This document shows positions 31,781-35,538 of a DNA stretch of 37,740 nt, piece by piece. Positions within the stretch are counted from its first letter, which is position 1; each line of letters begins with the position of its first letter. This DNA is from a virus (Duplodnaviria > Heunggongvirae > Uroviricota > Caudoviricetes), in the IMG/VR virus record IMGVR_UViG_2778261277_000009, positions 1 through 37,740 of that record; one strand, written 5' to 3'. The position numbers were made by a program, and so were the translations under genes. The notes beneath the pieces are model-generated. The model saw nothing but the letters and a program-made list of their open reading frames with translations. It made no database searches and had not been told where the DNA came from.

Positions 31781-33795
31781 GAGAGCTGTGCTATGGATCT
31801 GTTTGCAGTGGAATTGAAGCCGCGAGCATTGCCTGGGAACCGTTGGGTATGCGTCCGGCGTGGTTTGCTGAGATCGAGCCTTTTCCATCTGCCGTTCTTG
31901 CGCACCGCTGGCCCCATGTCGCCAACCTTGGCGACATGACAAAACTCGCCCAAAAAGTCCAGGCAGGAGAAATTGAAGCCCCTGATATGCTCGTCGGGGG
32001 TACGCCTTGTCAGGCATTCAGTATCGCGGGCTTACGTGGTGGGCTTGATGATGAGCGCGGCGCGCTAACTTTGAAGTATGTGGAGCTTGCAAATGCAATT
32101 GACGACAAACGGGCTGAGTCCTTCCTCAAACCAGCAGTTATCGTCTGGGAAAATGTCCCAGGAGTCCTGTCATCAGCAGATAACGCGTTCGGATGTTTCC
32201 TTGCCGGATTGGCTGGAGAAGATGCGCCATTCGAACCTGGTGATCGACCTGAATCACGAAAAAGTAATACGTTCTGGCGGTGGGATGTCAAAACCGGTTG
32301 CCATGCTCCAAAGTGGCCGCAGTGTGGTTGTATTTATGGACCGCAGCGAAAAGTGGCCTGGAGAATCCTTGATGCCCAATACTTCGGAGTGGCACAACGA
32401 CGCCGACGCGTGTTTGTTGTCGCAAGTGCTCGAACAGACCTCGATCCCGCAACGGTACTTTTTGAGTTCGAAGGCGTGCGCCGGAATATTGCGCCGAGCA
32501 GAGGCGAGGGGAAGGAAACTACCAGATATACTTCAAACATCGCTATCAGAACTTGCGATGATACAAACATAATTGCCATGGCACATGGGCAAGGAGGGGC
32601 TGAGATAAAAACCGATAATTCGGCACCAACTTTGACATGTAACCATGAAGCACCAATTGTATTGCTCGGCGACGGTAGAATGCGCCGTCTTACCCCTGTC
32701 GAATGTGAAAGGCTGCAAGGTTTTCCTGATGGGCATACGTTGATCCCGACGGAAAAGCGTAAAAAAGTTAATTCAGATGAACTGGCATATCTTCGCAATC
32801 ACTATCCAGATTTAAGCGAAGAAGAGGCCGCGATGCTTGCAGCTGACGGACCGCGTTACAAAGCGATCGGCAATAGTATGGCAATACCAGTAATGTGCTG
32901 GATTGGAGATCGGATTACTAAGGCCGTATGTCGGCAGAAAGAAGGAAGTGAAACAAAAGAGCGAAAAGTTAAACCAGCGGCAGAATTCGAACGGTCCATA
33001 TTCAAATGGGCTGGTGGAAAATTTGGTGTTCTGGAACAAATCTTTCACTATTTGCCAGAAGGGAAGCGCCTGATTGAACCTTTCGTTGGTGGCGGAGCTG
33101 TCTTCATGAATGCCGGATACCAGGAAAATCTGCTAAATGATGTGAATGCTGACCTGATTAACTTTTACAAGACTCTGCAACGCGAGGCGCATTCACTTAT
33201 CACTCTGGCACATCGTTTCTTCCTGGACTACAACACCCAGGAGGGATTCCTGGCAGTACGGAATGCGTTTAACAAACAAGTCTATGATGATTTACATCGC
33301 GCAGCGGCGTTTTTGTTCCTGAACCGACATTGTTTTAATGGATTGACGCGCTACAACCAGGCCGGTGAGTTCAATGTCGGTTATGGGAAGTATAAAACTC
33401 CGTATTTCCCATTACAGGAGATGGAAGCCTTCCTCGGTGCGGAAGGGCGGTCTGAGTTTGTATGCGGTGATTTTGCAGCAGTGATTGAAGCTGCCGGAGA
33501 AGGAGATGTCATCTTTTGCGATCCGCCGTATGAACCGCTCCCCAATACAGAGGGGTTTACGAACTATTCCGGTCATGACTTTAAGTTTGAAGAGCAAAAA
33601 CGCCTGGTGTCTCTGTTGACGGATGCTCATCGCCGAGGTGCAAAGGTACTCATTACTAACAGTGGCGCGCCAAACGTCAGAGAACTTTATCAGGACAGTG
33701 GCTTCAGAGTGGAACCTCTCTTTGCCAGACGTTCTGTGTCTTGTAAGGGAGACACTCGTGGTGTTGCTCATGACGTTATGGCTATATTGCTCTAA
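31777..33795 (+). CDS. dmt: bifunctional DNA methyltransferase: N-terminal C5-cytosine MTase fused to C-terminal Dam-like N6-adenine MTase
   Basis: GTG start overlapping the rdgC stop; C5-MTase motifs [11 protein letters not shown] (PCQ), ENVPGV (ENV), QRRRVFVVA; C-terminal FKWAGGK and DPPY motifs. Confidence 0.9.
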
Positions 33796-33815
33796 TAAAT
33801 TTATTAGTGTAATAT
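33786..33815 (+). promoter_or_regulatory. C1 operator (perfect consensus, Op72-like) overlapping a sigma70-like promoter toward the tRNA/ban region
   Basis: ATTGCTCTAATAAATTT exact (33786-33802), followed by a partial inverted half-site; -35 TTGCTC, 17-nt spacer, -10 TAATAT (33810-33815). Confidence 0.7.
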
Positions 33816-33989
33816 CACCTCAATGAATCGTGATTTATAGAGCGATTTAGCTGTTAGCCGCGACAGGCGCGGCGGCAAGTATGGCGGGGTAGTGACTCCT
33901 TCCCCATCATGACGCCGAGTTGCCAGGTTGACCATACGCCTAAGTGGCAACACCGAAGTGCGTTACGAGCTTCCAGTTTGCCCATCTTC

Positions 33990-34015
33990 GGGTGGGCGTT
34001 TTTTTCAGGGTTTTC
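33990..34015 (+). terminator. strong rho-independent terminator about 190 nt downstream of the operator/promoter
   Basis: GCCCATC-UUCG-GGTGGGC stem with tetraloop followed by G and seven T. Confidence 0.7.
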
Positions 34016-34471
34016 GTCATGGTTAGCGACTTTGCGGCGGTTTAGAAACTGACCATTAAAGTAAATGCAAACGATGATCTGATGATGGTAGCGGCCTAAG
34101 AAGCCAGACGCCACGGGGTATGAGTCGTCCCCCGTCAAAAAATCGACCGCAGAGTGTCCCCGTCTGTGTATTAGGGAACGGGGAGGCACAACAGGTAAGG
34201 GCGCTGGTTCGATTAACCAGATGAGCGAGAAGGGGTCATCTTTTTGGTCAGCGTCCTTACCTGTTACGTCCTTTTTCATTCTGCGTAACAGCAATTGCTT
34301 TTAGCAATTTGAAGATAACGTCCTACTACGGGGGTATCCCGTCATGCTGAAGGCGCTAATCACGCTGGAAGCCAGGGTTGTGCATCCCCTGTTACCGAAT
34401 TGCAGCCAGGGCGCGGTGCGCCGAAAAGCATACGGAGGTGGAAGCCCTCGCCGGAGACGTACCCGGCAAGT

Positions 34472-34547
34472 GATGGTGTAGCTCAGCGGTTAGAGCGGTT
34501 GACTGTTAATCAACGGGTCGATGGTTCAAATCCATCCACCATCGCCA
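34472..34547 (+). tRNA. tRNA-Asn (anticodon GTT)
   Basis: Hand-folded cloverleaf: 7-bp acceptor GATGGTG/CACCATC, D-arm TAGCTCAGCGGTTAGAGC, anticodon loop CTGTTAA, T-loop TTCAAAT, encoded CCA. Confidence 0.85.
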
Positions 34548-34549
34548 AT

Positions 34550-34625
34550 GCCGGTTTAGCTCAGTTGGTAGAGCGCCTGCCTTGTAAGCAGGATGTCAGC
34601 GGTTCGAGTCCGTTAACCGGCACCA
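34550..34625 (+). tRNA. tRNA-Thr (anticodon TGT)
   Basis: Cloverleaf with acceptor GCCGGTT/AACCGGC, anticodon loop CTTGTAA, T-loop TTCGAGT, encoded CCA; starts 2 nt after tRNA-Asn. Confidence 0.85.
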
Positions 34626-35188
34626 GCACAACAGGTAAGGGCATTCTCCCTTATAGGGCTTGGCTTAAATGCATCGAGTGCTCTTACCGTTGTGATGAAG
34701 TGCAGCTCTTTGAAGCAACCAGAAGATAAGCATCTGGCTTCACAACATAAACCGCAGGAACGACCAATAAACGGTAGTCCGTATGGAGAACACCCCGTTG
34801 AGGAAGAGGCCTGGCCGGAACCGTAACCGGCGACTGGTAATGTGTGTAAATGGAGCGAAATATGTGGGCGTTTAACGGGATACGGGTTGTAACAGCGATT
34901 ATTAACGGCGAACTTAAGTATTCACGTTTCGAGACAAATGAACGTGATGGGAAATGTATTGGTGTGCGGTTAGTAAGAGAATACGCATAACAACTACAAC
35001 GTTGAGAACACTGGCGTAACGGGGTCATATCCCAATCTATGAATAAATGTTGCGTTGCAGCGTGACAACCAGTGTTCTCAACATTGTGGTGAATGCACAG
35101 GCTGATGTGCCGCAACTACAGTAGTGCGCGCTTTGCGGGGCTTGCTACAACCCTGTGTCGGAGTTCAGCACCGACCATCACAATCACT

Positions 35189-35275
35189 GGAGAGTAGGGA
35201 GCATGGTGCTCAAACGGTCTTGAAAACCGTCCCATTGCGCAAGCGATGATGGTTCGATTCCATTACTCTCCGCCA
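35189..35275 (+). tRNA. tRNA-like element, class II (long variable arm), anticodon-arm identical in type to tRNA-Ser(UGA); atypical D-arm
   Basis: Perfect 7-bp acceptor GGAGAGT/ACTCTCC plus G and CCA; anticodon stem-loop ACGGT-CTTGAAA-ACCGT; T-arm GATGG-TTCGATT-CCATT; 17-nt variable region; D-arm only 4 bp with a 5-nt loop. Confidence 0.4.
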
Positions 35276-35538
35276 GTGCAACGTTAAGAGTATTTGGCTA
35301 ATTAAGCGAATGCCGGAAGCAGAACCGGATCACCAAATGCGTACAGGCGTCATCGCCGCCCAGCCAGCCAAGTGCTCTTACCATTGCGGTGAATGCGGCT
35401 ATGCGCACGCGGAACAGTTAAAACAATCCTCCTTAGTGGTTAAGTCAAACATCCCGGCGTTAATTGTTAACTGGTTAACGTCACCTGGAGGCACCAGGCA
35501 CCGCAGCTTTTTTATTCGTTAAATAATGGAGTGAGAGG

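What the first reader, a model, noticed from the sequence alone, without database searches (positions are those of the whole stretch)
34196..34642. 17-bp direct repeats flanking the tRNA-Asn/tRNA-Thr pair, with a tRNA T-arm-like hairpin next to the upstream copy
GCACAACAGGTAAGGGC occurs at 34196-34212 and again at 34626-34642, directly after the CCA end of tRNA-Thr. The upstream copy is followed by GCTGGTTCGATTAACCAG, a T-arm-like hairpin. The arrangement looks like a duplicated tRNA 3' flank, suggesting the tRNA pair was inserted or replaced by recombination at a tRNA-derived site, or that the 17-mer is a processing signal.
Basis: seen in the sequence. Interest (0 to 1): 0.4.

Follow-up and report, generated by a model that had tools for sequence, protein, structure and literature searches.

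The report
Conserved phage RNA hairpins bracketing tRNAs
The repeated 17-mer is the conserved first strand of two copies of a long, bulged RNA hairpin that many enterobacterial phages place between co-transcribed small RNA genes; it probably marks RNA cutting sites, and it led to an unannotated tmRNA-like gene next to it.

Summary
The 17-mer GCACAACAGGTAAGGGC occurs exactly twice. One copy is at 34626-34642, directly after the CCA of tRNA-Thr. It is not a target-site duplication or a copied tRNA flank. Each copy is the 5' strand of its own hairpin of about 20 bp (A 34185-34270, B 34627-34694), and a third, diverged copy lies at 34993-35090. I collected 86 distinct hairpins of this family from P1-like plasmids, lambda (directly after tR'), lambdoid prophages, T1-like, N4-like, FelixO1-like and Ackermannviridae phages. 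The arms are conserved and covary, a bulged A and a U.U mismatch are kept, and the interior is hypervariable. G.U pairs outnumber A.C pairs 113 to 12. Of 42 hairpins with a tRNA within 1 kb, 41 point the same way as the tRNA. The structure therefore belongs to the transcript. Best reading: these are RNase III-type processing sites between small RNAs in the ban-operon leader, which also serve as short homologies where tRNA modules are swapped. Module swapping is observed; cleavage is inferred. Directly upstream (34009-34185) lies an unannotated tmRNA-like RNA with a 10-codon tag and two pseudoknots but no tRNA-like domain. It matches 775 phage records.

The parts
33786..33815 (+). C1-controlled operator Oban and promoters P1ban/P2ban. 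This is the start of the ban-operon transcript that carries everything listed below.
   Evidence: Coordinates transferred from the P1 annotation (locus 1487-1516; locus 1501 corresponds to window 33800). Inference by homology. The simple promoter scan did not call it.
33910..34005 (+). dicF-like region ending in an intrinsic terminator-like hairpin (33979-33998) followed by a T-run.
   Evidence: P1 misc_feature 'dicF-like region'; terminator-like site; homologous to the ydfC-dicF region of the K-12 Qin prophage.
34009..34185 (+). tmRNA-like RNA without a tRNA-like domain. It has a 5' GGTTTTCG (D-loop-like), a resume context UAAAU, and a tag ORF GCA..GCC at 34067-34096 (ANDDLMMVAA) with stop codon 34097-34099. 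Pseudoknot a: 34113-34118 pairs with 34130-34135, and 34124-34127 with 34144-34147. Pseudoknot b: 34148-34152 pairs with 34164-34168, and 34158-34163 with 34178-34183.
   Evidence: Rfam tmRNA models align the resume and tag region below threshold; tags; pseudoknot covariation in the type I relatives; synonymous codon changes; 775 and 331 phage records. The pseudoknot coordinates in the window come from inspection and from comparison with L235.
34186..34202 (+). 17-mer copy 1, which is the 5' arm of hairpin A. It starts at the base after the last helix of the tmRNA-like RNA.
34185..34270 (+). Hairpin A. The 5' arm 34190-34206 pairs with the 3' arm 34249-34265, and the interior is 42 nt.
   Evidence: I3: 17 nt, 94%; z -6.15; z -6.25.
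34472..34547 (+). tRNA-Asn (GTT).
   Evidence: 74.5 bits.
34550..34625 (+). tRNA-Thr (TGT) with an encoded CCA.
   Evidence: 74.9 bits.
34626..34642 (+). 17-mer copy 2, which is the 5' arm of hairpin B. It starts at the base after the CCA of tRNA-Thr.
34627..34694 (+). Hairpin B. It has a 6-bp base (CACAAC/GUUGUG), a bulged A at 34633, a 13-bp upper stem and a 31-nt interior.
   Evidence: (z -5.27). The same element occurs in Klebsiella phages MK54 and 5 LV-2017, in lambdoid contigs, and (interior only) in a FelixO1-like tRNA array.
34993..35090 (+). Hairpin C, a third and diverged family member (ACUACAAC-G-UUGAGAACACUGG ... CCAGUGUUCUCAA-C-AUUGUGGU). It carries the family's conserved 3' flank GUGAAUGCACAG and lies upstream of tRNA-Ser-like 35189-35275.
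   Evidence: I1: 22 nt, 91%; z -6.14. Its resemblance to the family arms and 3' flank was judged by eye.
35189..35275 (+). tRNA-Ser(UGA)-like gene with a long variable arm.
   Evidence: (tRNA-Sec model 45.1 bits, below the gathering score of 47). It is annotated in phage D6 as an 'apparent UGA Serine anticodon'.

Best explanation
The two 17-mers are the 5' strands of two paralogous members of a conserved family of long, bulged RNA hairpins. The family plan is a 6-bp base CACAAC/GUUGUG, one bulged A, an upper stem of about 13 bp with a conserved U.U mismatch, and a hypervariable interior of 11-106 nt. These hairpins sit between co-transcribed small-RNA genes in the leader of the P1 ban operon: a DicF-like RNA, a tmRNA-like RNA, tRNA-Asn/Thr and a tRNA-Ser-like gene. 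Each hairpin begins exactly at the 3' end of a stable RNA: copy 1 follows the last helix of the tmRNA-like RNA, and copy 2 follows the CCA of tRNA-Thr. I propose that the transcript folds into these roughly 20-bp stems and that a double-strand-specific endonuclease, most likely host RNase III, cuts them. Cutting would release the small RNAs from each other and from the downstream ban mRNA, leaving short tails for exonuclease trimming. Because the arms are nearly identical between copies and between phages, they also act as short homologies where recombination swaps, adds or deletes the modules between them. Shown here: the family, its structure, its strand and its location at module joints. 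Inferred: cleavage, and the enzyme responsible.
For: The repeat is real and non-random. Each copy pairs locally, and hairpins A, B and C fold far better than shuffles (z -6.25, -5.27, -6.14). I collected 86 distinct hairpins with 67 distinct arm pairs from 116 loci. On the arms-only alignment (66 of the 67 arm pairs), 92.8% of cells pair, 13 of 18 pairs show changes on both sides (66 cells), 0 of 500 shuffles reach this, and slid controls pair only 41-61%. Whole basal helices are replaced compensatorily, for example ACTATC/GATAGT and GAAAC/GTTTC and AACAUU/AAUGUU in Sf16. G.U-type pairs number 113 against 12 A.C-type, and 41 of 42 hairpins with a tRNA within 1 kb share its strand, so the folded molecule is the sense transcript. 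The bulged A and the U.U mismatch (48 of 66) are conserved. In lambdoid prophage contigs one hairpin's 3' arm overlaps the first bases of the tmRNA-like RNA and a second starts right after its last helix. Lambda has the hairpin 7 nt after the tR' U-run, at 44786-44864, and it is the longest inverted repeat (two adjoining arm segments, I4 and I5) in the stretch scanned, from upstream of tR' to the start of S. [quoted passage not shown] Module swapping at the 17-mer is seen.
Against: No cleavage data were available. I could not read the 1988 lambda paper, so whether its RNase III sites coincide with this hairpin rests on my inference. RNase III has little sequence specificity, so it does not by itself explain why the arm sequences, the bulge and the mismatch are so conserved; a sequence-specific partner or recent horizontal spread may be involved. 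The K-12 prophages DLP12 and Qin lack the hairpin, so published K-12 RNase III maps cannot be used. The hairpin set was collected by similarity to both arm consensus sequences, which favours pairing. An arms-only covariance model recovered only hairpin B in the window.
Confidence: 0.55

Rival explanations
1. The hairpins are uncut RNA stabilisers or barriers, like REP or BIME elements. They would stop 3'-5' exonucleases or RNase E scanning and so set the half-lives of the flanking small RNAs and the ban mRNA, with no endonucleolytic cleavage in the stem.
For: The structural, strand and covariation evidence is the same as for the main explanation. The hairpins sit at the 3' ends of stable RNAs. 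They have no U-tract, so they are not terminators.
Against: A stem starting at the base after the CCA would block the exonucleolytic trimming that tRNA-Thr needs, unless it is first cut. In lambdoid contigs the 3' arm includes the first bases of the tmRNA-like RNA, which suggests the stem must be opened. The title of the lambda paper points to RNase III sites in this leader.
Confidence: 0.15
2. The arms act at the DNA level. They would be ends of a small mobile element or recognition sites of a recombinase or homing nuclease that moves tRNA and small-RNA cassettes between phages, and the RNA fold would be incidental.
For: The 17-mer lies exactly at the module joints. The same string of modules occurs in P1-likes, lambdoid prophages and a 160-kb Ackermannviridae phage. 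HNH endonuclease genes sit next to the element in a FelixO1-like array and in phage 0507-KN2-1.
Against: The 113 to 12 excess of G.U over A.C pairs and the 41 of 42 co-orientation with tRNAs indicate selection on one strand of RNA. Interiors are unrelated between copies, unlike MITEs. No flanking target duplications were seen and no dedicated recombinase was found next to the hairpins in the window.
Confidence: 0.12
3. The hairpins are the missing tRNA-like partner of the adjacent tmRNA-like RNA. After cleavage near the bulge, the upper stem plus interior (some with D-like and T-arm elements) would serve as an acceptor-like domain, giving a split tmRNA.
For: Several interiors contain a canonical T-arm and a D-like hairpin (P1 R2, L011, L221, L046, L009). 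The 3' arm often reads ..CUUACC just at the bulge. The tag ORF is under coding selection yet no tRNA-like domain is found.
Against: Interiors are hypervariable and most lack a T-arm, including window hairpins A and B. The ACC is not conserved: Sf16 has UUUAAAA and others have AUC or UUC. No G3.U70 and no free CCA are present. No Rfam tRNA, tmRNA or YrlA model reaches its threshold.
Confidence: 0.08
4. A simple one-off event: insertion of the tRNA pair duplicated a 17-bp target or tRNA 3' flank, and the repeat has no function.
For: An 'empty' P1-like contig with one 17-mer and no tRNAs exists (L021).
Against: Each copy has its own, different complementary arm. RCS47-type genomes have three copies. 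The arms occur in lambda and many unrelated phages. The arms covary.
Confidence: 0.03

Closest known systems
RNase III processing stems in polycistronic phage and rRNA transcripts (T7 early sites, the lambda N-leader and sib, the 16S/23S flanking stems, the T4 tRNA precursor), and the RNase III sites reported in the lambda late transcript (Daniels et al. 1988, title only; otherwise from my own knowledge)
   Same: A stem of about 20 bp with an internal irregularity. It is placed between functional RNAs of one transcript, is conserved as structure on the transcribed strand, and is present in lambda directly after tR'.
   Different: Cleavage is untested here. The arms are far more conserved in sequence than RNase III needs. 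The loop is a hypervariable insert of 11-106 nt, and the element recurs as a family across unrelated phage groups.
Repeated intergenic hairpins of bacteria (REP/BIME, ERIC, Neisseria Correia elements); from my own knowledge
   Same: Short, repeated, imperfect palindromes in transcribed non-coding DNA that fold in RNA, influence processing or stability, and act as recombination substrates.
   Different: Those families have conserved interiors and are chromosomal. Here only the arms are conserved, the elements are phage-borne, and they are tied to tRNA and small-RNA clusters.
tmRNA (one-piece and permuted two-piece), for the neighbouring element at 34009-34185
   Same: A resume-codon context UAAAU-GCA-AAC-GA, a 10-codon tag ending in hydrophobic-A-A or V-A, a stop codon in a helix-5-like hairpin, two downstream pseudoknots, and a D-loop-like GUUUUCG as in the permuted tmRNAs of viral contigs.
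   Different: No acceptor stem, T-arm or CCA could be found. ARAGORN calls no tmRNA and the Rfam scores are far below threshold. The only reduced phage form I found described is the opposite kind, the tag-less tRNA-like-domain-only RNA of mycobacteriophage DS6A (PMC11915505).
Bacterial Y RNA YrlA
   Same: A long terminal stem enclosing a tRNA-like module in some members (P1 R2).
   Different: There is no GNCGAA motif. The order is D-like then T-arm rather than T then D. There is no RF02553 match on the hairpins.

Membership tests
RNase III substrate | A mostly Watson-Crick dsRNA stem of about two helical turns (about 20 bp) | tested here: met
   Predicted folds of A, B, C, lambda, P1 R2 and Sf16. 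18 modelled pairs are 92.8% paired across 66 arm pairs.
RNase III substrate | The structure is selected on the transcribed strand | tested here: met
   13 of 18 pairs have double changes and 0 of 500 shuffles reach this. G.U 113 versus A.C 12. 41 of 42 are co-oriented with tRNAs.
RNase III substrate | rnc-dependent staggered cleavage in the stem | not testable with these tools
   Only the title of Daniels et al. 1988 could be retrieved. The paper is not held.
Target-site duplication of an insertion | An empty site with a single copy exists | tested here: met
   L021 has the upstream flank, one 17-mer and hairpin B, with no tRNAs.
Target-site duplication of an insertion | The repeats are by-products with no partners or wider distribution | tested here: not met
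   Each copy pairs with its own 3' arm. The arms are found in lambda and many unrelated phages.
tRNA remnant (T-arm) next to copy 1 | The T-loop sequence is conserved in relatives and scored by a tRNA model | tested here: not met
   51 GTGTGA versus 5 GTTCGA. There is no RF00005 match at 34203-34220.
YrlA / Y RNA | A GNCGAA(N)G motif in the 5' stem, T-arm before D-arm, and an RF02553 match | tested here: not met
   Features were taken from PMC4201824. The motif is absent from the arms. The order in P1 R2 is D-like then T. No RF02553 hit on P1 R2. The only YrlA hit in the window overlaps the two real tRNAs.
MITE / transposon ends | Conserved interior and flanking target duplications | tested here: not met
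   About 25 unrelated interiors lie between the same arms. No flanking duplications were seen.
Integron attC | RYYYAAC / GTTRRRY core sites and an integron integrase nearby | tested here: inconclusive
   CACAAC/GTTGTG resembles the cores with one mismatch each (by eye). I did not search for an integrase. The joints lie at the 5' arm, not at the 3' core.
tmRNA (element 34009-34185) | Resume context plus a tag ORF ending in a hydrophobic-Ala-Ala type degron | tested here: met
   Rfam tmRNA consensus alignments. More than 20 distinct tags of 10-11 aa.
tmRNA (element 34009-34185) | The tag frame is under coding selection | tested here: met
   The same peptide ANDNTFLAVA is encoded by GCA AAC.. and by GCT AAT... 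The last Ala is encoded by GCC, GCT or GCG.
tmRNA (element 34009-34185) | Pseudoknots downstream of the tag | tested here: met
   Helices 3-5 are 99% paired with double changes, and 0 of 500 shuffles reach the observed value.
tmRNA (element 34009-34185) | A tRNA-like domain: acceptor stem with G3.U70, T-arm, 3' CCA | tested here: not met
   No ARAGORN tmRNA call. Rfam scores are 10-26 bits against gathering scores of 47.

The most novel reading that the evidence does not exclude
The 17-mer hairpins are the punctuation of a horizontally mobile small-RNA cassette. Its core is a previously undescribed tmRNA derivative that keeps a translated 10-codon degradation-type tag, helix 5 and two pseudoknots but has no tRNA-like domain. 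P1 carries it in the ban leader (34009-34185), and hundreds of enterobacterial phages of unrelated families carry it too. It would have to enter or subvert trans-translation in a new way: by borrowing a tRNA-like domain (hairpin-borne, phage tRNA-like, or host) or by acting as a decoy.
Probability: 0.4. Interest if true: 0.85.

Novelty: new variant of a known kind. Interest (0 to 1): 0.6.

Why it matters
This gives a concrete, testable account of how P1 and lambdoid phages release tRNAs and small RNAs from long leader transcripts. It also explains why the tRNA complement of P1-like phage-plasmids varies: the hairpin arms are the crossover points. The hairpin in lambda's late leader becomes one member of a wide family rather than a curiosity. 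Following the repeat uncovered an unannotated tmRNA-like RNA without a tRNA-like domain, matched in 775 phage records and in 137 of 5,426 complete E. coli genomes. How a tag-coding RNA without a tRNA-like domain could work is an open and directly testable question about phage interference with ribosome rescue. It also suggests that the annotated minus-strand ORFs plp and upl of P1, which run through these hairpins and into tRNA-Thr, deserve re-examination.

Tried and rejected
- **Rfam:** scans of the region and of relatives gave nothing at threshold for the hairpins or the tmRNA-like RNA.
- **ARAGORN:** it finds no tmRNA in the window or in the enterobacterial phage loci. It does find permuted tmRNAs in other viral contigs with the same resume context.
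- **YrlA / Y RNA idea:** rejected.
- **Target-site duplication and MITE ideas:** rejected.
- **CCA-end idea:** I considered that the 3' arm's 'ACC' becomes a CCA end after cleavage. It is weakened because the ACC is not conserved.
- **Arms-only covariance model (R1):** it recovered only part of hairpin B in the window, because the long interiors are penalised. I did not use it for counting.
- **K-12 prophages:** I looked for the hairpin in DLP12 and Qin so that published RNase III maps could be used, but it is absent there.
- **Literature:** I found nothing on the 17-mer, on a P1 ban-leader RNA, on phage tmRNAs without a tRNA-like domain, or on the tag peptides. The P1 genome paper, Daniels et al. 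1988 and the RNase III review are not held.
- **Promoter scan:** it found no sigma-70 consensus promoter between Pban and the tRNAs.

Full report
**Where the window is.** The region is more than 92% identical to P1, P7, RCS47, SJ46, D6 and other Punavirus genomes. In the P1 annotation the homologous stretch is the leader of the C1-repressed ban operon. The order is: end of dmt, operator Oban and promoters Pban, a 'dicF-like region', trnA (Asn), trnT (Thr), then the minus-strand ORFs plp and upl, then tciABC, trnI and ban. In the window, tciABC is replaced by an SPFH/Band_7 gene, as in RCS47.

**Checking the observation.**
- GCACAACAGGTAAGGGC occurs exactly twice, at 34186-34202 and 34626-34642. 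There are no further matches even at 3 mismatches, and 0 of 100 shuffles gave two matches.
- The downstream copy starts at the base after the CCA of tRNA-Thr (34550-34625).
- The upstream copy is followed by GCTGGTTCGATTAACCAG as described. In relatives this stretch reads GCTGGTGTGATTAACCAG in 51 occurrences and GCTGGTTCGA in only 5. It is not scored by the tRNA model, so its T-arm look is a local accident.

- Each copy is the 5' arm of a long hairpin.
- Copy 1 (34190-34206) pairs with 34249-34265 (17 nt, 94%).
- Copy 2 pairs with 34676-34694.
- The folds are well below shuffled controls (z -6.25 and -5.27).
- A third, diverged hairpin with the same plan and the same conserved 3' flank (GUGAAUGCACAG) lies at 34993-35090, upstream of the tRNA-Ser-like gene (z -6.14).

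**A hairpin family.**
- *How it was collected.* A scan of IMG/VR for the 17-mer, BLAST of hairpin B against phage records, and loci brought in for other reasons all show the same arms around unrelated interiors.
- *Where it occurs.* The arms are RCACAAC-A-GGYAAGRGY-AUU ... AGU-RCYCUUWCC-GUUGUG. They occur in P1-likes, in lambda itself 7 nt after the tR' U-run (lambda 44786-44864), in lambdoid prophage late leaders and in Klebsiella phages MK54 and 5 LV-2017. They also occur in HK620, in a G7C-like N4-type phage and in an Ackermannviridae phage. In a FelixO1-like tRNA array the basal helix is replaced.
- *Size of the collection.* I collected 86 distinct hairpins with 67 distinct arm pairs.
- *Covariation.* On an arms-only alignment (66 of the 67 arm pairs), 92.8% of cells pair and 13 of 18 pairs show changes on both sides (66 cells). 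No shuffle of 500 reaches this, and sliding the partner drops pairing to 41-61%. Whole basal helices are swapped compensatorily, for example ACTATC/GATAGT, GAAAC/GTTTC and AACAUU/AAUGUU.
- *Conserved irregularities.* Two are kept: the bulged A, and a U.U mismatch three pairs above it (48 of 66).
- *Strand.* Wobble pairs are G.U on this strand 113 times, against 12 A.C. Of 42 hairpins with a tRNA within 1 kb, 41 point the same way as the tRNA. The selected structure is therefore that of the sense transcript, not the DNA duplex.
- *Caveat.* The set was gathered by similarity to both arm consensus sequences, which favours pairing.

**The 17-mer as a recombination joint.** Among P1-like contigs the left and right contexts of the 17-mer recombine freely.
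- After tRNA-Thr one finds the P1-type hairpin R2 (45 occurrences), hairpin B (8), another type R4 (3), or R2 followed 215 bp later by a third 17-mer and hairpin B (RCS47 type, 13 or more contigs).
- Between the first two copies the tRNA content is Asn-Thr, Arg-Thr, Asn-Tyr-Thr, Arg-Tyr-Thr, one fused tRNA, or none.
- Contig L021 (98.9 kb) has one 17-mer joining the upstream flank directly to hairpin B, with no tRNAs.

So recombination at the arms is observed. It is recombination between family members, not a target-site duplication, because the 'insert' carries its own matching 3' arm.

**Proposed mechanism.** The hairpins start exactly where stable RNAs end. One starts after the CCA of tRNA-Thr, and one after the last helix of the tmRNA-like RNA. 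In lambdoid contigs a hairpin also sits upstream of that RNA, with its 3' arm including the RNA's first bases. A conserved stem of about 20 bp with an internal irregularity, placed between functional RNAs of one transcript, is what RNase III sites look like in phage and rRNA precursors (established knowledge). In lambda this hairpin is the longest inverted repeat in the stretch scanned, from upstream of tR' to the start of S. [quoted passage not shown] I therefore favour RNase III-type punctuation (confidence 0.55). Uncut stabiliser hairpins, DNA-level recombination sites and a tRNA-like partner role are the rivals. No cleavage data were accessible, and RNase III alone does not explain the strong sequence conservation of the arms.

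**The neighbour: a tmRNA-like RNA.**
- *Distribution.* The stretch upstream of copy 1 (34009-34185) is homologous to a segment that precedes the hairpin in MK54, HK620, G7C-like, FelixO1-like, Ackermannviridae, SSU5 and Erwinia phages. This is 775 phage records with the MK54 query and 331 with the window query, and no listed record carries an RNA annotation there. It also matches 137 of 5,426 complete E. coli genomes.
- *Resume context and tag.* The context is UAAAU-GCA-AAC-GA, and both Rfam tmRNA models align to it below threshold. The tag has 10 codons: ANDDLMMVAA in the window, and ANEEMYLAVA, ANDNVFLAVA, ANDDVVLMAA, ANDSEVLMAA and others elsewhere.
- *Coding selection.* The tag frame shows synonymous changes: GCA AAC versus GCT AAT for the same peptide, and a final Ala encoded by GCC, GCT or GCG.
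- *Structure.* The stop codon sits in a helix-5-like hairpin. Two pseudoknots follow, each 99% paired with double changes.
- *Missing part.* Viral contigs with bona fide permuted tmRNAs share the resume context and a D-loop-like GGUUUCG. In the enterobacterial phage form, however, no acceptor stem, T-arm or CCA could be found.
- *Literature.* I found no description of such an RNA, nor of its tag peptides. The library does not hold most subscription journals, so this is absence in what I could search and not proof of novelty.

**Verdict.** The repeat is real and is not an accident. It is the conserved arm of a phage RNA hairpin family that is probably a processing site and is demonstrably a recombination joint. 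It flanks an apparently undescribed tmRNA-like gene.

Noticed in passing
window 34009-34185 (tag ORF 34067-34099): An unannotated tmRNA-like RNA with a resume context, a 10-codon tag ANDDLMMVAA, a helix-5-like hairpin and two pseudoknots, but no tRNA-like domain. Homologues match 775 phage records of many families and 137 of 5,426 complete E. coli genomes. The tag frame shows synonymous substitutions.
   Followed up: partly
L130 1672-1798; also L253, L254, L255 (Ackermannviridae): A conserved tRNA-like RNA of about 127 nt with acceptor GCCGUU/AACGGC, a T-arm GGGUUCGACUCCC and an encoded CCA. It lies directly after the tmRNA-like RNA and is not called by ARAGORN or by Rfam at threshold. It is internally deleted in phage 0507-KN2-1 and displaced in KP6. 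It could be a tRNA-like-domain partner.
   Followed up: partly
window 34684-35115 (- strand); P1 plp 69472-69849 and upl 69850-70041: The 'plp' ORF runs antisense through hairpin C and ends in the 3' arm of hairpin B. In P1 the annotated plp overlaps hairpin R2 and 30 nt of tRNA-Thr, and upl overlaps a third P1 hairpin (P1 70005-70083). The window ORF has no Pfam match. These ORFs may be annotation artefacts of structured non-coding DNA.
   Followed up: partly
window 35189-35275: A tRNA-Ser(UGA)-like gene with a long variable arm that is absent from P1. It scores 45.1 bits on the tRNA-Sec model, just under the gathering score, and it is annotated with a caveat in phage D6.
   Followed up: no
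window 35385-35505: A sub-threshold match to the Rfam sRNA family STnc100 (40.1 bits against 47; E 2e-6). It was also seen in the P1-like contig L021 (33 bits).
   Followed up: no
window 33860-34005 and L252 13243-13435 (K-12 Qin prophage): The first 200 nt or so of the ban leader are homologous to the ydfC-dicF intergenic region plus dicF of Qin. The whole ban leader looks like a patchwork of lambdoid late-leader and dicB-operon modules. The patchwork includes the motif GCCGGAGAUCAGCACCGG(Y)CA(Y)CACA, which precedes the third 17-mer in RCS47-type genomes and recurs in lambdoid and KP6 leaders.
   Followed up: partly
window 34180-34192 and 34377-34389: A 13-nt, 92% complementary pair (GGGGAGGCACAAC / GTTGTGCATCCCC). 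It would give copy 1 a family-type GUUGUG basal partner 190 nt downstream, as an alternative long-range helix. It may be chance.
   Followed up: no
window 34203-34220 versus the loop of pseudoknot b in type I relatives (for example L128 2475-2499): In most P1-likes the interior of hairpin A reads GGTGTGATTAA. This is the same motif as the conserved loop GGUGUGAUUAAUAAU of the last pseudoknot of the type I tmRNA-like RNA, so hairpin A may hold a remnant of a second cassette.
   Followed up: no
L138, L142, L168, L171, L184, L204, L212, L233 (IMG/VR contigs): ARAGORN calls permuted (two-piece) tmRNA genes in these viral contigs, with tags of 10-13 aa and the same AUAAAUGCAAACGA resume context as the enterobacterial phage element.
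   Followed up: partly
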